This document shows, in pieces, positions 45,066 through 50,380 of a stretch of 64,000 nt of DNA. The notes beneath the pieces were generated by a model. The model saw only the letters and a program-made list of their open reading frames with translations, was not told the DNA's origin and did not search any database. Position numbers and translations under genes: made by a program. The stretch comes from Candidatus Heimdallarchaeota archaeon (GTDB lineage: Archaea > Asgardarchaeota > Heimdallarchaeia > Hodarchaeales > Hodarchaeaceae): positions 4,426,823 through 4,490,822 of the forward strand of contig CP070695.1 of assembly GCA_020353515.1 (NCBI GenBank), in the 5' to 3' direction. Numbering within the stretch: the stretch's first letter is position 1; every line of letters begins with the position of its first letter.

Positions 45066-46631
45066 TTGAGGAATATGTCAAGGTCAATTGAATTTGAAAG
45101 GTCGGAAACACTTTATCTTTTCTTTTCTTATGATCAAGAGGATTTAATTCAAGAATTTGGGAGGATTGGACTTACTCCGAAGACATATGAGGATACTCCT
45201 GTTACTAGGACTTTATACTTAGGAGCCACTGTTGGTATGAGGCCTGGGGTATCTATTAAGGTCAGATCATATTCTCCAGATTGGGCAAAAAACGTTTATC
45301 ATATAACTCCTGATTCAGAATTCGATTTATTAGAGATTAAATTAACCACTGGGCAAGCGACTATTTCTAGCAGTTTAATAGATTCTCAAGATGAAAGCAG
45401 TGATCTTGTTTTCTCCTTTCAGCGTTCTCTAGATGACGCTTTACTTAAAAGACGACCCCGTCTGAAAAGAAAGTCTCGCTTAATGAAAGCCAAAAACCCT
45501 AACTTTCCTTTTGAAGGGAAAAATTCGAATAAAATAACATTCAAGCAAGTAATTCAAGTTTTAACAAGTTCTAGTGAGCTAGATGAATTTTTAAATCCAA
45601 AGCTGCTCAATAATCTTAATGGTAAGGTTAGACCATTATATGGTAAAACGATCCTTCCATTCATAGTTACGCAGTATGGTCGAATTCATTTTGTCCCACA
45701 AGAAGATGCTGGAGAATGGAAGGATGTAGTTAGAGTAACGATTGATCCAGGTGTTGAATTTTACAATTTAATTCAGAAAGATCCTGAAACTTTTGTAGAT
45801 AAACCAGAGATGATCGCAGAGTTTTTGATGAAAGAGAAACATTCCCGTTTAGAATTAAAAATAGATCCAACAGCTTTAGAACAGTATCCTAAATTTAAAA
45901 ATGATTTAAAAGCAATCTTTAAAAAATATGGAGTAATGAACAGTATCTCAAAGAAATGGACTGGTTTAAATGCAACTACAGATCATTATATAGCCCAACA
46001 AAATCTTTGGTGTGAAAGAGAGAATAGATATTGTACTTTCCCTGTTCATCGATCATGGTACCGTTTTGGTAGTCCAAGACTAATCTTTTCTAAGCTAGTA
46101 AACCCCTCTGAGAACTTCGTACCATATGCAAATGATCTCAAAGTCCTGATAAAAAATGTTCACAGCGTTGATGCAGTTACCCATGCGGATCAAGAATTCC
46201 ATGTTTCTTTACAGGCATCTCGGCTTATTTTTAATTTACCTCCAGAAATTCAACCTTATGAAGATAATAACTCTAAATTAAATGTCATTCGAGAAAAGAA
46301 ATCTATTCGAGATATACAACTCTATTCAAAAAAGCAACTAGAGAAATTAACAGAAGAATTCCCAATGGATATTATAGGACATTCATATTACCGCAGTTTT
46401 GGAGGTCTGATTTGTTCTGAAAACACCAATCGGATATATAAATTCTCGATCGAAAGGAAACGCACAATGATTGATCGACAATTGAAAGCAAAATTTTATT
46501 GTAAGTTACGATATTTAGGCTCCAAATTCAGATTGCTTCAAGATGATGAAGAGGAGATTGTCTCTGATTTTAAGACTTTTTACGATAAATTCAACGATCA
46601 TTTCTCCCGGCCAATTGAGCTCTATCTATAA
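45066..46631 (+). CDS. VTC-like (triphosphate tunnel metalloenzyme) domain protein with a second, degenerate CYTH-like domain
   Basis: Ordered motifs FERSETLY, TRTLYL, IKVRSY, LLEIK, KSR, LPFIVTQYGR, RVTID, LELK, ISKK parallel the VTC consensus. Confidence 0.6.
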   Translation: MRNMSRSIEFERSETLYLFFSYDQEDLIQEFGRIGLTPKTYEDTPVTRTLYLGATVGMRPGVSIKVRSYSPDWAKNVYHITPDSEFDLLEIKLTTGQATISSSLIDSQDESSDLVFSFQRSLDDALLKRRPRLKRKSRLMKAKNPNFPFEGKNSNKITFKQVIQVLTSSSELDEFLNPKLLNNLNGKVRPLYGKTILPFIVTQYGRIHFVPQEDAGEWKDVVRVTIDPGVEFYNLIQKDPETFVDKPEMIAEFLMKEKHSRLELKIDPTALEQYPKFKNDLKAIFKKYGVMNSISKKWTGLNATTDHYIAQQNLWCERENRYCTFPVHRSWYRFGSPRLIFSKLVNPSENFVPYANDLKVLIKNVHSVDAVTHADQEFHVSLQASRLIFNLPPEIQPYEDNNSKLNVIREKKSIRDIQLYSKKQLEKLTEEFPMDIIGHSYYRSFGGLICSENTNRIYKFSIERKRTMIDRQLKAKFYCKLRYLGSKFRLLQDDEEEIVSDFKTFYDKFNDHFSRPIELYL

Positions 46632-46692
46632 TTTTCTCGCACTTTACTAAATTCAAACATAACCAGTGATTTAAAGACTAAGTGGATCTTCA

Positions 46693-47349
46693 ATGTGGGA
46701 ATGGCGTTTTTTTTGTGACTTAGCGAGTGCCTCTTATTTTTTTACTAATCAAACAGATTTGGAATCAGCAATTAACTCAGAAGATCATGAGATACGTTTT
46801 GATAGGTATGTGAATCTGCGTACTCCAGAATTAGGTTTAAAATTTCGAAACATTAGAAATAATGTTAGAAAAGCATTACTTGAGCTAAAAGTCTTGTTTC
46901 AGACAAACCAATGGAAAGCGGAATTTTGGGAAAAACCAATAAGAAGATACACATTTACTCATCCAGGTAGAGAAGTAATCCCAACTATTCTCCATGAAGA
47001 ATCAAACAAACTTTACCCAGAATTATCAAAAAAAATCAATTGGATTCTTGACCATATTTCAAGTAAGGAGTTAGAATTCACTACTATTAAGAAAAAACGC
47101 AAAATACTTCATCTATATGATCCTAACAAAGTTGTTAAGTCTAAATTTCAGATCCCCAAAGCGTCCACAAGAATTGAACAAACAGTGGTCGAATTTAATC
47201 AAACAACATGGAAGACGATCTCAATACAATCTTATAATGATCAAACAATCAAAGGAATCCTTGATAACCTTGCGATAGATGAGCGATACATTATTTCAGG
47301 TTATCCAGGTTTTTTAATAGGACAATCCACAACTAATAATAATCTTTAA
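46693..47349 (+). CDS. CYTH-like domain protein
   Basis: WEWRFF, RFDRY, GLKFR, LELKV, EFWEK, KKKR, EQT, WKTISIQ, GYP. Confidence 0.65.
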   Translation: MWEWRFFCDLASASYFFTNQTDLESAINSEDHEIRFDRYVNLRTPELGLKFRNIRNNVRKALLELKVLFQTNQWKAEFWEKPIRRYTFTHPGREVIPTILHEESNKLYPELSKKINWILDHISSKELEFTTIKKKRKILHLYDPNKVVKSKFQIPKASTRIEQTVVEFNQTTWKTISIQSYNDQTIKGILDNLAIDERYIISGYPGFLIGQSTTNNNL

Positions 47350-48571
47350 CTTCGATAACCGATGGATCAATCTTCAAATCTTGGATTAACGTCCTTTGCT
47401 TTGTATCTATTTCAATTCGTTCTAAGCTTGGTAATTCTGATAATTCTTCTGGAATTTCTTTAAGTGGATTATGCCGTAATCCTAAGACACGCAATTTTTG
47501 ACATTTGTGAATATTTTCTGGTAATTGGGTGATGTTGTTTGAGTTTAAGTATAGAAATTCAAGGTTCTCTAACTTATTAACATCAAAGGAAAAATCTTCT
47601 ATTTCATTGTGTGAAATCCAAGCTTCACGTAAATTGGTCATATTTTCCAAACTCGGTAAAATTTTTATGTCATTGTGGCTTAAATCGAGTTTTTCTAATT
47701 TTATTAACTTTGAAAATGATTCTGGAATTTCTGTTAAGAAGTTATTATAACCTCCAAAATCTTTAAGAGATAAAATATCACCTATTCCATCTGGTAACTC
47801 TCTTAACCTGTTACACTCTAATTCCAGACGTCTTAAAACCTTAAATTCTCCAATATTATCTGGTAATGTTTCCAAGTAATTATCTCGGATATCTAATCTT
47901 TCTAACTTTTCAATCTTAACTATAGATCTGGGAAGTTCAGCTATTCTATTCTTTTGTATGTTTAAATAATTTAATCTAGGAAACCGTGTCATATCTTCAA
48001 AAAGACGCGAGAATCTATTTGTGCGCAGAATCAGTTTTTCTAAGCCCACAAGTCCACTAAGATTTTCTGGTACTTCTGTCAAAAAATTTCGTCGAACATC
48101 AAAAATTTCCAGTTTGGTTAAACGATTAAGATTTTCAGGTAATCTTGTCAATTGATTTCTGCCTACTGCTAGTTTCATTAAATTCGTGCAATTGCATATA
48201 CTCTCTGGAAGAATTGACAGGTTATTCCTTCGAATTTCTAGGTGTTCTAACTTTTCCAAATTACCAATTGATTCTGGTAATTCAATAAGCTGATTACGAT
48301 TAAGATCAAGCCGAGTTAGAGTGCGAAGATCTCCTATATTATCAGGTAGTGTTTCTAATTTGTTCTCTCTTAGATTTAAGCGTTCCAAATGCTTAAGTTC
48401 AGAAATTGATTCAGGGATTTGAGTCAGTCCAAGACTCCTCAAATTTAGCAATACAATCTTATCCTTATCGAAAACTGTATTACCTCTACTTAACAGTTGA
48501 TTAACTGAATACTCACGAAATTCAAAATGAAACTCATCAATTATTTGATTCAAAACTTCCAGTTCACTCAT
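47333..48571 (-). CDS. Leucine-rich repeat protein (about 15 repeats of 23 aa)
   Basis: LxxLxLxxNxLxxLPxxIxxL repeats. Confidence 0.93.
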   Translation of the reverse strand: MSELEVLNQIIDEFHFEFREYSVNQLLSRGNTVFDKDKIVLLNLRSLGLTQIPESISELKHLERLNLRENKLETLPDNIGDLRTLTRLDLNRNQLIELPESIGNLEKLEHLEIRRNNLSILPESICNCTNLMKLAVGRNQLTRLPENLNRLTKLEIFDVRRNFLTEVPENLSGLVGLEKLILRTNRFSRLFEDMTRFPRLNYLNIQKNRIAELPRSIVKIEKLERLDIRDNYLETLPDNIGEFKVLRRLELECNRLRELPDGIGDILSLKDFGGYNNFLTEIPESFSKLIKLEKLDLSHNDIKILPSLENMTNLREAWISHNEIEDFSFDVNKLENLEFLYLNSNNITQLPENIHKCQKLRVLGLRHNPLKEIPEELSELPSLERIEIDTKQRTLIQDLKIDPSVIEVKDYY

Positions 48572-49898
48572 AGACCCTCACTCCTTTGGCTTTTAAGTCA
48601 CTTATTATCGGCATGGATTGGTCAGATAAGGGATTATTCTTGACGTTGATCATCTTGAGGTTGGGTAAATCAAGTAACGATTTGGGAAGATCTCTGAAAT
48701 TATTGTTATCTAAGGCTAGACCTTCAAGTTTTGTCAATTTGTCTATATCAGAGGGAAGATCGGATATTTGATTATTGGAAACCCAGATCTCTCTTAATAT
48801 TGGTAGATCACATACAGCTGGTGGAATGTCCTTAAGTTGATTTTTCGAAAGAAATAGGAATTCTAGGTTTCGTAAATTCTTAATATGATCTGGAACATCC
48901 GTTAATTGATTGTTATTATAATTTAATTCTTTTAAGTTATCAATTGATGTAATTGATGGAGAGATCTCCGTGATTTCATTCTCTTCTAGGGTTAAAATTC
49001 GTAACAGCTTTAAATTCTTCAACGAATCGGGAAGATCTTTTAGCTTATTATCTGAAAAGCTTAATTCAGTTAGTAGCTTTAGTTCCCCCACTCCTTCAGA
49101 TATTGAGGTAAGATGATTCGCAATGAAGTCTAATCTTGACATGTTTTTTAATTGCCAAAGACTCTCAGGTAGAGAAGTTAACTGGTTTGACCTAAAATCT
49201 ATCCTATTCAAATTTATTAAATTCCCTAGTGCGTCAGGTAATTCTATTAATTGGTTCTTTTGTAAATTAAAAGTAACTAATCCTTGAAGATTTTCAATTT
49301 CATCAGGGATTTTGGAAATGTGATTATTCCCTAAATCTAATTCTATAAGATTGACTAATTTTGTTACTGACAGTGGTATCGTGGAAAGACCCATGTTACG
49401 TAAACTGAGTAATTCCAAACGGTCTAACCTATCAATATCCTCGGGAAAGGATTCTATGGATAAATAATTATTGTTTAACAAAAGCTGTCTGAGATTAGAG
49501 ATCGGTAAGATTTCTTTTGGAAAAGAAGTAAATAAACATTCACGTAAATCTAATCGCCGTAGCCTTTGAAGTTTGGCAATTTCTTTGGGTAATGATTTTA
49601 TTGGATTCCAACGTAAATCCAAGCGTTTTAAATTGATTAGCTTTGTAGTACCAAGAGGTAGGGATTTAAGGTCATTGGTACGTAAATCTAATCTATTTAA
49701 TTGTTTAAATAACCCAATTTCATATCCTAGTTCCTTGATATGTAACTCCCTGAGATCTAATTTTTTGAAAAAATCAATAACATATACTGTTCTTCGCCGA
49801 TTTAATATTTCATCAATTTGAATATCCCCTGGAAGCTTTTGAAGTAAGTTTTTGAGATTTTCAAGTTCAAAGCTTTCAGTCATTAATGTTTCCATCAC
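48564..49898 (-). CDS. Leucine-rich repeat protein (about 17 repeats of 23 aa)
   Basis: LxxLxLxxNxLxxLP repeats; 8-bp overlap with the downstream LRR gene. Confidence 0.93.
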   Translation of the reverse strand: MMETLMTESFELENLKNLLQKLPGDIQIDEILNRRRTVYVIDFFKKLDLRELHIKELGYEIGLFKQLNRLDLRTNDLKSLPLGTTKLINLKRLDLRWNPIKSLPKEIAKLQRLRRLDLRECLFTSFPKEILPISNLRQLLLNNNYLSIESFPEDIDRLDRLELLSLRNMGLSTIPLSVTKLVNLIELDLGNNHISKIPDEIENLQGLVTFNLQKNQLIELPDALGNLINLNRIDFRSNQLTSLPESLWQLKNMSRLDFIANHLTSISEGVGELKLLTELSFSDNKLKDLPDSLKNLKLLRILTLEENEITEISPSITSIDNLKELNYNNNQLTDVPDHIKNLRNLEFLFLSKNQLKDIPPAVCDLPILREIWVSNNQISDLPSDIDKLTKLEGLALDNNNFRDLPKSLLDLPNLKMINVKNNPLSDQSMPIISDLKAKGVRVYE

Positions 49899-49996
49899 TT
49901 TAAGTCAACCTTTCTTAAGAAATGACAAATTAGATCAAATATCTACAGTCTAAAAAACATTTTTACTTATTTACACTAATAAACTAATTAATCTTT

Positions 49997-50380
49997 TTAA
50001 CAAGTAGTGTGAAAAACACCTACTACTCTTTCGCCCTGCTCCAAAAGTTCATTTGTTTTAGCGAGAACCAAGGGTGTACGGTCTCGTATCAGTACAACAT
50101 TCTCTTCTTTCAGTTTCGATGTTAACCAGCTTTCCGATTCTTGGGTTAATGGTAAAATGCCAGTTTGGCCTGTTCCAATAACCAAGTAGCTGGGCTTGTT
50201 CTGAAATAGCCTTTGGAGTTCCCATAAAGAAAGTTCCTTGTGCCCCCTTATTCGCTTTGAATGAGATTTATTCCGCTTAACGATTCCCTGGTCAGGTAAA
50301 AGATAGACATCATGAGGATACTCTTGATTGGATATTGTTATGGCCCCAAATCGGGTTGATTCAAAGTTTATTCTTTTCAT
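49997..50380 (-). CDS. Mth938-like (DUF498/AAMDC) domain protein
   Basis: FGAITI, YPHDV, LVIGTGQTG, C-terminal HTTC. Confidence 0.88.
   Translation of the reverse strand: MKRINFESTRFGAITISNQEYPHDVYLLPDQGIVKRNKSHSKRIRGHKELSLWELQRLFQNKPSYLVIGTGQTGILPLTQESESWLTSKLKEENVVLIRDRTPLVLAKTNELLEQGERVVGVFHTTC

What the first reader, a model, noticed from the sequence alone, without database searches (positions are those of the whole stretch)
47333..49898. Coupled LRR paralogues with an arginine ladder, converging on the VTC/CYTH pair
Two stand-alone LRR genes overlap each other by 8 bp, and one overlaps the CYTH gene end by 17 bp. Concave-face positions are strikingly Arg-rich in the N-terminal halves (RLDLRTN, RLDLRWN, RLDLREC; RLNLREN, RLDLNRN, HLEIRRN, IFDVRRN, KLILRTN, RLDIRDN) and aromatic or neutral in the C-terminal halves. 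In-register blocks are shared (NLQKN-RIDFRSN versus NIQKN-RLDIRDN). This suggests a heterodimeric receptor for a linear polyanion such as polyphosphate or nucleic acid. With the neighbours it may form a four-gene system (inference; the adjacency could be chance).
Basis: partly seen in the sequence, partly recalled or inferred. Interest (0 to 1): 0.7.

Follow-up and report, generated by a model that had tools for sequence, protein, structure and literature searches.

The report
Asgard LRR pair linked to polyphosphate-type enzymes
Two arginine-rich leucine-rich-repeat proteins of an Asgard archaeon sit in a gene cluster, conserved across several Asgard lineages, with two tunnel-fold enzymes related to the eukaryotic polyphosphate polymerase, which gives these otherwise unexplained repeat proteins a first testable functional context.

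Summary
Two LRR-only genes (412 and 444 aa) overlap by 8 bp. The first overlaps the convergent upstream gene by 17 bp. Their concave-face positions are far richer in Arg than those of 108 homologues.

- P0003 is a tandem triphosphate-tunnel (TTM) protein. Its N-domain matches yeast Vtc4/Vtc2 (Z about 11). Its C-domain is a second TTM.
- P0004 is a CYTH-fold protein (pLDDT 90, Z 13.7 to YgiF).

The main new result is synteny. The order VTC-like, CYTH-like, then convergent LRR-A and LRR-B recurs at 33-40% identity in 10 of 12 Asgard genomes that carry the VTC-like gene, spread over four GTDB families, with unrelated flanks. LRR-A and LRR-B are separate, anciently duplicated orthologous groups, and several Arg columns are invariant.

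One genome has a CYTH-CHAD gene (CHAD is a known polyphosphate binder) where the LRR pair would be. The host genome lacks PPK1, PPK2, PPX and CHAD.

The four-gene system is therefore well supported. That the LRR pair is a heterodimer or binds polyphosphate is untested. Invariant Asp, Asn, Gln and Tyr among the Args fit a protein-binding scaffold almost equally well.

I found no published description. A first-reader note of this scan flagged the enzyme pair in another genome.

The parts
45066..46631 (+). P0003: tandem triphosphate-tunnel protein. The N-domain (residues about 11-306) is VTC-like and the C-domain (about 319-516) is a second TTM fold. The real start is probably the ATG at 45075.
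   Evidence: P0003 has no Pfam hit above threshold (sub-threshold VTC E 0.07). Two homologues at 35-40% identity hit PF09359 VTC at 1.3e-7. In the model (pLDDT 56), residues 11-306 align to Vtc4/Vtc2 tunnel domains at Z 10.3-11.3. Residues 319-516 align to YgiF at Z 9.3, Med18 at about 9 and SaTTM at 8.4. The database copy is 518 aa.
46693..47349 (+). P0004 ('P4'): a 218-aa CYTH-fold triphosphate-tunnel protein, 61 bp downstream of P0003.
   Evidence: No Pfam or PDB sequence hit. The model from 23 homologues has pLDDT 90.3. Foldseek gives CYTH/TTM structures at probability 1.0. VIA-align gives Z 13.7 to YgiF, 12.3 to 2gfg and 10-11 to archaeal and plant TTMs. Invariant tunnel-type residues are E3, R5, E33, R35, D37, K50, R52, E64, K66, K81, K134, R136, E162 and E179.
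47333..48571 (-). LRR-A: a 412-aa LRR-only protein with a 60-aa N-cap and 14 units of 23 residues. The concave face of units 1-9 is Arg-rich.
   Evidence: LRR_14 8e-43 and LRR_8 2e-37. Unit register. Arg statistics. Invariant concave residues are R138, R183, Y/N/Q of unit 7, R225, D227, R229, R248, E250 and Y of unit 10.
48564..49898 (-). LRR-B: a 444-aa (probably 443-aa) LRR-only protein with 15 units. Units 1-3 and 7-8 carry conserved R-x-D-x-R ladders.
   Evidence: LRR_14 2e-40. Units. Conserved residues are R69/D71/R73, R92/R96, D117/R119/E120, K214, R232/D234/R236 and R255/D257.
48564..48571 (-). 8-bp overlap (ATGAGTGA) of the LRR-B stop and the LRR-A start, consistent with translational coupling.
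   Evidence: In orthologous loci the junction ranges from an 8-bp overlap to a 24-bp gap, apart from one 89-bp overlap (G282/L009) that probably reflects a miscalled start.
47333..47349 (.). 17-bp overlap of the convergent 3' ends of P0004 and LRR-A.
   Evidence: In other lineages the convergent ends range from a 23-bp overlap to a 62-bp gap.
49997..50380 (-). DUF498 gene upstream of LRR-B on the same strand. Probably not part of the conserved module.
   Evidence: PF04430 3.6e-10. It is kept next to the cluster only in the nearest relative G012. Other lineages have a NUDIX or a Ras-family GTPase gene in this position.

Best explanation
The finding is the LRR half of an Asgard-specific four-gene module made of two convergent operons. 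One operon encodes a soluble tandem-tunnel enzyme with a Vtc4-like N-domain (P0003) and a CYTH-fold tunnel protein (P0004). The other encodes two anciently duplicated SHOC2/Roco-class LRR proteins that are co-transcribed and probably translationally coupled.

Shown: the gene order, the folds, the separate orthology of LRR-A and LRR-B, the Arg enrichment and the conserved Arg columns.

Inferred: the tunnel proteins make or process a phosphoanhydride chain, most likely inorganic polyphosphate, since the genome has no PPK1, PPK2 or PPX. The LRR pair is the non-catalytic binding subunit. Its conserved R-D-R ladders on the concave faces hold the anionic product or substrate, plausibly as a metal complex. 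On this reading the LRR pair does the job that the CHAD domain does in bacterial TTM and polyphosphate operons.
For: Synteny:
- The VTC-like, P4, LRR-A, LRR-B order is found in G000, G012, G282, G274, G162, G275, G278 (split over two contigs), G130 and G131. G014 has it without P4.
- That is 10 of the 12 genomes carrying the VTC-like gene among 400 Asgard genomes, in families f1, f19, f20 and f21, at 33-40% identity and with unrelated flanks.
- In the window's genus only 3 of 22 genomes have P0003, and the same 3 have an LRR-A orthologue.

Folds.

LRR-A and LRR-B orthology: 17 of 17 best cross-family hits fall on the same positional type.

Arginine:
- 13 Arg and net +8 against a background of 3.0 +/- 1.6 Arg and net -2.5.
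- Orthologues in other families still have 6-9 Arg.
- Invariant Arg columns.
- Arg is chosen against a Lys-preferring genome.
- Many orthologues are basic overall, pI 9.1-9.5, against a background pI of 5.95.

Polyphosphate context:
- In G279 the VTC-P4 pair is followed by a CYTH+CHAD gene (CHAD 2.7e-25) and there is no LRR pair there. CHAD is a specific polyphosphate-binding module often joined to TTMs (PMC6537752).
- The own genome, 96% complete in one contig, shows no PPK1, no PPK2 above cut-off, no Ppx-GppA and no CHAD.
- A NUDIX gene heads the LRR operon in five genomes.
Against: - No binding or activity has been tested, and no LRR protein is known to bind polyphosphate (no paper found).
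- The conserved concave patch is mixed. It has invariant Asp/Glu at x5 between the Args, plus invariant Asn, Gln, Tyr and Gly, as in protein-binding LRRs.
- Net concave charge outside the window's genus is only 0 to +5. LRR-A of the window is acidic overall, pI 5.35.
- The CHAD substitution is a single genome.
- In family f19 the gene heading the LRR operon is a Ras-family GTPase, which points to SHOC2/Roco-like signalling.
- The window's P0003 has Leu at position 16 where 9 of 10 diverse members have Arg. This may be the catalytic Lys200 position of Vtc4 (from memory, not tested), so the enzyme may be altered here.
- Distant P4 relatives lie beside nucleoside-metabolism genes rather than polyphosphate genes.
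Confidence: 0.4

Rival explanations
1. The LRR pair is a protein-protein scaffold or regulator in the manner of SHOC2 or Roco LRR domains. Its conserved concave patch docks onto P0003, P0004 or an upstream signalling protein such as a small GTPase, and switches the tunnel enzymes on or off. The Args make salt bridges to an acidic protein segment, not to a polyanion.
For: - The nearest relatives of LRR-A are Roc-COR and SHOC2-annotated LRR proteins at 30-37% identity.
- The conserved patch is chemically mixed: R, D, E, N, Q, Y and G.
- A Ras-family GTPase gene (PF00071 3.5e-23) heads the LRR operon in G130 and G131.
- P0003 has a conserved acidic segment (..ASEDGLL..) inside a low-confidence loop, residues 94-154.
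- Nearly all characterised cytosolic LRRs of this class bind proteins (general knowledge).
Against: - P0003 and P0004 are themselves basic in the window genome, pI 9.0 and 9.3, which makes them poor partners for an Arg-rich face.
- This reading does not explain why Arg is so much more frequent than in 108 homologues, SHOC2-annotated ones included.
- It does not explain the CHAD gene in the LRR position in G279.
- The GTPase neighbour occurs in only one family.
Confidence: 0.35
2. The module acts on nucleotide or RNA 5'-polyphosphate ends rather than on inorganic polyphosphate. Possible substrates are an NTP-derived signal, adenosine polyphosphates, or 5'-triphosphate RNA. The tunnel proteams would then be triphosphatases or cyclases, NUDIX a pyrophosphohydrolase, and the LRR pair a nucleic-acid or nucleotide sensor, possibly in defence.
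For: - The TTM fold also matches Cet1-type RNA triphosphatases and class IV adenylate cyclases at Z about 8-9.
- NUDIX genes sit in the LRR operon, with weak similarity to NAD diphosphatase and RNA pyrophosphohydrolase models.
- Distant P4 relatives lie next to an AMP/thymidine-phosphorylase-like gene with an IF-2B-family gene, a nucleoside hydrolase, and a purine/uridine phosphorylase.
Against: - The best structural matches of the P0003 N-domain are the Vtc2/3/4 tunnels, not Cet1.
- No PADLOC defence-model hit of any weight.
- No nuclease, helicase or other nucleic-acid enzyme is in the conserved block.
- The CHAD neighbour in G279 points to polyphosphate.
Confidence: 0.15
3. The adjacency has no functional meaning. 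The LRR pair is one more member of the Asgard LRR expansion that happens to lie beside the TTM operon.
For: Asgard genomes are rich in LRR proteins of unknown function (bioRxiv 10.64898/2026.10.28.762692). A third Arg-rich LRR paralogue in this genome (9 Arg, net 0) lies in an unrelated context.
Against: - The same order and orientation recur in four families at 33-40% identity with unrelated flanks.
- Presence and absence co-vary within the genus.
- The highest-scoring LRR-A matches in the 400-genome search (190 bits or more) are all cluster-linked.
Confidence: 0.05

Closest known systems
Eukaryotic VTC polyphosphate polymerase complex (Vtc4/Vtc3 or Vtc2/Vtc1; PDB 3g3q, 7ytj, 8i6v)
   Same: The P0003 N-domain has the Vtc4/Vtc2 tunnel fold (Z 10.3-11.3 over 220-233 residues). 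More than one tunnel domain works together: here there are three in two proteins, while VTC has one active and one inactive.
   Different: No SPX domain and no membrane domain are found. P0003 is soluble, carries a second TTM domain in the same chain, and is not recognised by Pfam VTC at threshold. Its partners are LRR proteins, which VTC does not have. The catalytic-lysine equivalent is unresolved.
CYTH/TTM proteins joined to CHAD polyphosphate-binding domains (E. coli YgiF, PDB 5a60; CHAD: PMC6537752)
   Same: A tunnel enzyme is paired with a non-catalytic, basic binding module. YgiF is the best structural match of P0004 (Z 13.7). A true CYTH-CHAD gene takes the place of the LRR pair in G279.
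   Different: The binding module here is a pair of LRR solenoids, not a helical CHAD domain. It is encoded on the opposite strand, not fused. Polyphosphate binding is not shown.
SHOC2 and Roco-type LRR domains (SHOC2-MRAS-PP1C; LRR-Roc-COR proteins)
   Same: The same 23-residue LxxLxLxxNxLxxLPxxIGxL repeat class. The best database hits are Roc-COR and SHOC2-annotated proteins. A Ras-family GTPase gene is adjacent in one family.
   Different: There is no Roc-COR domain and no long disordered N-terminus. There are 14-15 units rather than about 20. Concave-face Arg content is above all 108 homologues scored. The genes come as a conserved pair next to TTM enzymes.
Bacterial VTC-DUF4956-CotH gene triad
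   Same: A prokaryotic VTC-domain protein in a conserved gene cluster whose biochemistry is unknown.
   Different: No DUF4956 is found in the genome, and no CotH or membrane partner is in the block. The partners are CYTH-like and LRR proteins instead.

Membership tests
Leucine-rich repeat proteins, 23-residue SHOC2/Roco-type class | Tandem LxxLxLxxNxLxxLPxxIGxLxx units detected by the Pfam LRR models | tested here: met
   LRR_14, LRR_8 and LRR_4 at E 1e-33 to 1e-43 for both proteins. There are 14 and 15 units at a 23-residue spacing.
SHOC2 orthologues | About 20 LRRs preceded by a long disordered N-terminal region carrying an RVxF PP1-binding motif | tested here: not met
   There are 14-15 units after a 60-66-residue N-cap. 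Reading the N-caps shows no [RK]-x-[VI]-x-[FW] match. NCBIfam and Pfam give only generic LRR-level matches.
Roco proteins | Roc GTPase plus COR domain in the same chain as the LRR | tested here: not met
   Only LRR families hit. The proteins end right after the last repeat.
VTC domain (Pfam PF09359), for neighbour P0003 | Sequence match to the VTC model above the gathering score | tested here: inconclusive
   P0003 itself scores 13.5 bits, E 0.07. Two family members at 35-40% identity match at 1.3e-7, and a 25%-identical member matches at 9.7e-5.
VTC domain (Vtc4-type tunnel), for P0003 | Vtc4/Vtc2 tunnel fold | tested here: met
   Z 10.3-11.3, rmsd 4.1-4.8 over 215-233 residues, for model residues 11-306. 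The nine best rows are all Vtc2/3/4. The model has only pLDDT 56.
Active polyphosphate polymerase (Vtc4) | Catalytic lysine on strand 1 (Lys200 of yeast Vtc4) and the full set of tunnel-lining residues | tested here: inconclusive
   No sequence alignment to Vtc4 could be obtained. Family-invariant charged residues alternate on predicted strands. Position 16 is Arg in 9 of 10 diverse members but Leu in the window protein. Its equivalence to Lys200 rests on my memory of the Vtc4 sequence.
Eukaryotic VTC complex | SPX domain and Vtc1-type membrane domain | tested here: not met
   No SPX match in the genome, but the control genomes cannot ring for this family. There are no predicted membrane helices in the P0003 model and no membrane gene in the conserved block.
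CYTH domain (Pfam PF01928), for neighbour P0004 | Sequence match to the CYTH model, and the N-terminal ExExK motif | tested here: not met
   No match for P0004. One of 23 relatives reaches E 0.017. Strand 1 reads WEWR, that is, one Glu and an Arg; the first Glu is missing in all members.
Triphosphate tunnel metalloenzyme fold, for P0004 | Eight-stranded tunnel fold with charged residues lining the strands | tested here: met
   Model pLDDT 90.3. Z 13.7 to YgiF, and 10-12 to a dozen CYTH structures, over 156-189 residues.
CHAD polyphosphate-binding domain | Helical CHAD domain (PF05235) | tested here: not met
   No CHAD in the window proteins or in the genome. CHAD is present only in the G279 locus, in place of the LRR pair.
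Known anti-phage defence systems (PADLOC) | Match to a defence-system protein model | tested here: not met
   Only marginal hits: 20 bits to an LRR-containing candidate, and 14 bits for P0003.

The most novel reading that the evidence does not exclude
LRR-A and LRR-B form a heteromeric cradle that reads or holds a linear phosphoanhydride polymer. That polymer would be inorganic polyphosphate, or a nucleotide polyphosphate, made by a soluble Asgard relative of the eukaryotic VTC polymerase. In some lineages a Ras-like GTPase or a NUDIX hydrolase would add a regulatory layer. This would be the first LRR receptor for an inorganic polymer. It would also be an archaeal, membrane-free counterpart of the VTC system, in the lineage nearest to eukaryotes.
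Probability: 0.25. Interest if true: 0.85.

Novelty: new variant of a known kind. Interest (0 to 1): 0.64.

Why it matters
Asgard archaea share with eukaryotes an expansion of LRR proteins, and a recent survey states that their function is unresolved (bioRxiv 10.64898/2026.10.28.762692). This cluster gives one pair of them a conserved genomic partner with a recognisable chemistry, so their function becomes directly testable with four small soluble proteins.

It also defines two unannotated, apparently Asgard-restricted tunnel-enzyme families. One has the fold of the eukaryotic polyphosphate polymerase, and it sits in a genome where PPK1, PPK2, PPX and CHAD were not found. If the enzyme makes polyphosphate, it bears on how polyphosphate is made in archaea that lack PPK, and on where the eukaryotic VTC system came from.

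Tried and rejected

Neighbourhoods were rebuilt from the genome search, the fetch from genomes and the search for related loci instead.
- The search for related loci with the P4 alignment failed because no stretch was conserved enough.
- Pfam, NCBIfam and PDB sequence searches of P0003 and P0004, alone or as profiles, gave nothing significant. Catalytic residues could therefore not be mapped onto Vtc4 by sequence.
- BLASTP of P0003 against P0004 shows no detectable similarity.
- No fused VTC-LRR protein turned up among longer proteins, and that search is weak evidence.
- PADLOC shows no defence-system membership.
- Paper searches for Asgard + VTC + polyphosphate, triphosphate tunnel + LRR, and polyphosphate + LRR + polyP-binding found nothing relevant.

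**Ideas considered and dropped**
- I first guessed a Leptospira-type bacterial LRR expansion, from the GC content and LRR richness. I dropped it once homologues proved to be Hodarchaeales and other Asgard archaea.
- I considered that the extra Args in the window's genus compensate for the Leu at P0003 position 16. This fails because G014 keeps Arg16 yet has 12 concave Args.
- The ABC ATPase that recurs near three loci belongs to a ubiquitous family and lies at varying distances, so I treat it as coincidence.
- A 499-aa ORF upstream of a distant P4 relative is a nucleoside/AMP-phosphorylase-type protein, not a VTC-like protein.
Full report
**What is in the window.** Four ORFs lie between 45066 and 49898.
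- P0003: 521 aa, + strand.
- P0004: 218 aa, + strand, 61 bp downstream of P0003.
- LRR-A: 412 aa, - strand, 47333-48571.
- LRR-B: 444 aa, - strand, 48564-49898.

The LRR-B stop and the LRR-A start share the octamer ATGAGTGA, with a GGAG-like stretch just upstream. The 3' ends of P0004 and LRR-A overlap by 17 bp. LRR-B probably starts at the ATG one codon into the ORF. P0003 probably starts at its fourth codon, since the database copy is 518 aa.

**The organism.** The window lies in a 4.94-Mb single-contig genome. Homologues of P0003 are labelled Hodarchaeales or Hodarchaeota and Heimdallarchaeota. Related loci come from assemblies titled Promethearchaeota, the NCBI name for the Asgard phylum. 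This is an Asgard archaeon, not a bacterium.

**The LRR proteins.** Both proteins consist only of a roughly 60-residue N-cap followed by 14 or 15 repeats of 23 residues, of the LxxLxLxxNxLxxLPxxIGxL type. Their nearest relatives in a 5.8-billion-protein search are only 30-37% identical. These are generic LRR proteins from all domains of life, among them LRR-Roc-COR proteins and proteins annotated as SHOC2 or LRRC1.

**Is the arginine ladder real?** I registered every repeat and counted residues at the four solvent-exposed concave positions (x3, x5, x7, x8).
- In 1457 repeats from 119 homologues, Arg makes up 6.7%, 3.5%, 9.8% and 6.7% of those positions.
- The best nine-repeat window of each homologue averages 3.0 Arg (sd 1.6, maximum 8) and a net charge of -2.5 (sd 3.3, maximum +4).
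- LRR-A has 13 Arg and +8 in its first nine repeats, beyond every homologue.
- LRR-B has 9 Arg, also above the maximum, but a net charge of 0.
- The genome prefers Lys overall (R/(R+K) 0.41), yet LRR-A concave positions hold 14 Arg to 4 Lys.
- Most other LRR proteins of this genome have 0-5 concave Arg. One paralogue has 9.

**What the neighbours are.** Neither P0003 nor P0004 matches any Pfam, NCBIfam or PDB sequence at a meaningful level.

P0003 has only about a dozen relatives of near-query length in the 5.8-billion-protein collection. Two of them, at 35-40% identity, match the Pfam VTC domain at 1.3e-7. A structure model from ten sequences is of modest quality (pLDDT 56) but gives a clear answer.
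- Residues 11-306 align to the Vtc4, Vtc3 and Vtc2 tunnel domains at Z 10.3-11.3 over 215-233 residues. These are the nine best rows.
- Residues 319-516 form a second tunnel domain: YgiF Z 9.3, Mediator Med18 about 9, Sulfolobus TTM 8.4, Cet1-type RNA triphosphatases about 8.

P0004 has 29 relatives in a search of 1.84 billion representatives. The model built from 23 of them has pLDDT 90.3. It matches CYTH-family tunnel enzymes over its whole length: YgiF Z 13.7, 2gfg 12.3, and a dozen more at 10-11.

The P0004 family keeps a nearly full set of tunnel-lining residues: E3, R5, E33, R35, D37, K50, R52, E64, K66, K81, K134, R136, E162 and E179. It lacks the first Glu of the classical ExExK motif, and strand 1 reads WEWR.

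The label 'VTC/CYTH pair' is therefore right at the level of fold. It is not shown at the level of activity.

**The decisive result: conserved gene order.** I searched 400 Asgard genomes with the P0003 family profile and found it in 12. I fetched the flanks and compared all ORFs.
- Ten genomes have the LRR pair directly convergent on the enzyme operon: G000 and G012 (family f1), G014 (f1, without P0004), G282 (f21), G274, G162, G275 and G278 (f20; the G278 locus is split over two contigs), and G130 and G131 (f19).
- Protein identities to the window are 33-40% outside the genus.
- The surrounding genes are unrelated between families. They differ even between G000 and its close relative G012, which has Fur and catalase where G000 has a methyltransferase-like gene and a MarR-family gene.
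- LRR-B to LRR-A junctions run from an 8-bp overlap to a 24-bp gap, apart from one 89-bp overlap (G282) that probably reflects a miscalled start. The convergent ends run from a 23-bp overlap to a 62-bp gap.

Within the window's own genus, only 3 of 22 genomes have P0003, and the same three have an LRR-A orthologue. The highest-scoring LRR-A matches in the 400 genomes (190 bits or more) are all the cluster-linked genes. Lower-scoring hits in other contexts are longer, generic LRR proteins.

The genomes are related, so this amounts to four or five independent lineages, not ten. Even so, chance adjacency is no longer tenable.

**The exceptions are informative.**
- In G279 (f21) the VTC-like and P4 genes are followed, on the same strand, by a 542-aa protein with CYTH (1.2e-7) and CHAD (2.7e-25) domains, and there is no LRR pair. 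CHAD domains are specific polyphosphate-binding modules typically joined to TTM enzymes or placed in polyphosphate operons (PMC6537752).
- In a Heimdallarchaeota lineage (G082 and a 120-kb metagenome contig) the enzyme pair stands alone after mevalonate-pathway kinases. Its P4 gene is so diverged that only profile comparison finds it (98% probability).

The enzyme pair is thus the core, and the LRR pair is its commonest companion.

**The gene at the head of the LRR operon varies.** It is a NUDIX hydrolase in five f20/f21 genomes, a Ras-family small GTPase in the two f19 genomes, and a DUF498 protein in G000 and G012.

**LRR-A and LRR-B are distinct, old paralogues.** For all 17 full-length proteins, the best hit in another lineage is the protein in the same position: A to A (mean 215 bits), B to B (223 bits), against A to B (169 bits). 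The duplication therefore predates the spread of the cluster, and both copies have been kept. This fits the idea that they work together, but it does not show a heterodimer.

**Conservation of the arginines.** The very high Arg count of LRR-A (12-13, net +7 to +8) is a feature of the window's genus. Orthologues in other families have 6-9 Arg and a net charge of 0 to +4. LRR-B has 6-9 Arg and 0 to +5 in all lineages. All of these lie above the background mean.

Specific columns are invariant or nearly so.
- LRR-A: R138 (unit 4, x8), R183 (unit 6, x7), R225/D227/R229 (unit 8) and R248/E250 (unit 9).
- LRR-B: R-D-R in units 1-3 (R69/D71/R73, R92/R96, D117/R119/E120), K214, R232/D234/R236 and R255/D257.

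The same map also shows invariant residues that are not basic: Gly in unit 4, Tyr-Asn-Gln in unit 7, Tyr in unit 10 and Asp in unit 11 of LRR-A, and Asp-Gly-Asn, Asn-Gln-Lys and Tyr in LRR-B. The surface is a specific, mixed patch in which each Arg pair brackets an acidic residue. It is not a uniformly basic groove.

Overall charge varies. The window's LRR-A is acidic (pI 5.35), while most f19 and f20 orthologues of both proteins are basic (pI 9.1-9.5), against a pI of 5.95 for the homologue background.

**Genomic background.** The host genome is 96% complete in one contig. It gave no match to PPK1, Ppx-GppA, CHAD or DUF4956, and only a sub-threshold PPK2 match. It has two ordinary CYTH proteins elsewhere. 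The SPX search was uninformative because no control genome can ring for that family. If this organism makes polyphosphate, P0003 is the only candidate enzyme I could find.

**Interpretation.** I regard as established that this is a conserved four-gene module found only in Asgard genomes in the collections searched, that the enzymes have VTC-like and CYTH-like tunnel folds, and that the LRR pair has an unusually Arg-rich and partly invariant concave face.

How it works is inference. The tunnel proteins make or process a polyphosphate-type chain, and the LRR pair binds it, possibly as a metal complex bridged by the conserved Asp residues, in the role that CHAD plays elsewhere.

The main rival (about 0.35) is a SHOC2/Roco-style protein scaffold that regulates the enzymes. 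It is favoured by the mixed chemistry of the patch, the GTPase neighbour in f19 and the general behaviour of this LRR class. It is disfavoured by the basic character of the enzymes themselves and by the CHAD swap.

A nucleotide or RNA 5'-polyphosphate reading (about 0.15) draws on the NUDIX neighbours. It also draws on the fact that distant P4 relatives sit beside an AMP/thymidine-phosphorylase-like gene, an IF-2B-family gene, a nucleoside hydrolase and a purine/uridine phosphorylase.

**A caveat for the window's own enzyme.** Strand 1 of the VTC-like domain reads E-R-x-E-x-R-Y in 9 of 10 diverse family members. In the window protein and its close relatives the second Arg is Leu. By the structural offset and my recollection of the Vtc4 sequence, this may be the position of the catalytic Lys200. 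I could not test this, because no sequence alignment to Vtc4 could be obtained.

**Novelty.** I found no paper that describes this cluster, an Asgard VTC-like protein, or any LRR protein that binds polyphosphate. The library is limited to open-access papers and preprints. A recent preprint states that Asgard LRR proteins are of unknown function.

Earlier first-reader notes of this scan had guessed the tandem-TTM nature of P0003 here, and had seen the same enzyme pair in another genome. Neither note had tested the link to the LRR pair.

The folds are known, but the combination is not. I class it as a new variant of a known kind: a tunnel-enzyme cluster with a novel binding partner.

Noticed in passing
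window 45105-45116 (P0003 residues 14-17): Strand 1 of the VTC-like domain reads E-T-L-Y in the window protein and its close relatives. It reads E-x-R-Y in 9 of 10 diverse family members, including G014 of the same genus. The Arg may correspond to the catalytic Lys200 of Vtc4 (from memory, untested).
   Followed up: partly
L050:5666-8014 (G077), L051, L047 (G108), L049 (G353): Distant members of the P0004 family occur without any VTC-like or LRR gene. They lie beside nucleoside-metabolism genes: an AMP/thymidine-phosphorylase-like gene plus an IF-2B-family gene, an inosine-uridine nucleoside hydrolase, and a PNP/UDP phosphorylase. This hints at a nucleotide-type substrate for the family.
   Followed up: partly
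P0165 (474 aa); L049:2148-3542 (G353): A form of the P0004 family is fused to an N-terminal domain with about four hydrophobic helices, that is, a membrane-tethered CYTH-like tunnel protein.
   Followed up: no
L016:5626-7254 (G279): A CYTH+CHAD protein is encoded directly after the VTC-like/P4 pair, in the one genome where that pair has no LRR genes nearby.
   Followed up: yes
L013:12809-13339 and L015:3754-4272; L009-L012 and L044: The gene at the head of the LRR operon varies. It is a Ras/Roc-family small GTPase in family f19, a NUDIX hydrolase in f20 and f21, and DUF498 in the window's clade.
   Followed up: partly
G000:C1:406686-408074 (L046:6187-7575, outside the window): A third LRR-only paralogue (462 aa, 32% identical to LRR-A) also has 9 concave Arg (net 0). 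It lies among an ABC ATPase, a beta-propeller protein and two overlapping DUF5906 ORFs, not near TTM genes.
   Followed up: partly
window 45066-50380 versus L003 (G012:C158): The five-gene block (VTC-like, P4, LRR-A, LRR-B, DUF498) is 69-92% identical between G000 and G012, but both flanks differ. The block has moved or sits in a variable region. P0004 evolves fastest (69%).
   Followed up: partly
L007:5237-8909 (G014:C243): G014 keeps the VTC-like gene convergent on LRR-A and LRR-B but has no P0004 gene. The gap is only 74 bp, and no P0004 match was found elsewhere in that 95%-complete genome.
   Followed up: partly
models m89f5702f4a51 (residues 319-516) and mee11ef456091: Both tunnel domains also match the Mediator head subunits Med18/Med20 and the trypanosome RESC1/RESC2 proteins at Z about 7.5-9. 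These are non-enzymatic heterodimers with a tunnel-like fold, so the similarity may be only a shared fold.
   Followed up: no
LRR-A residues 27-35 and LRR-B residues 32-40 (window 48467-48493 and 49779-49805): The N-caps of both LRR proteins share a conserved R-x-x-T-V-[FY] motif. R29 is invariant in LRR-A orthologues, and R34 is nearly so in LRR-B.
   Followed up: no
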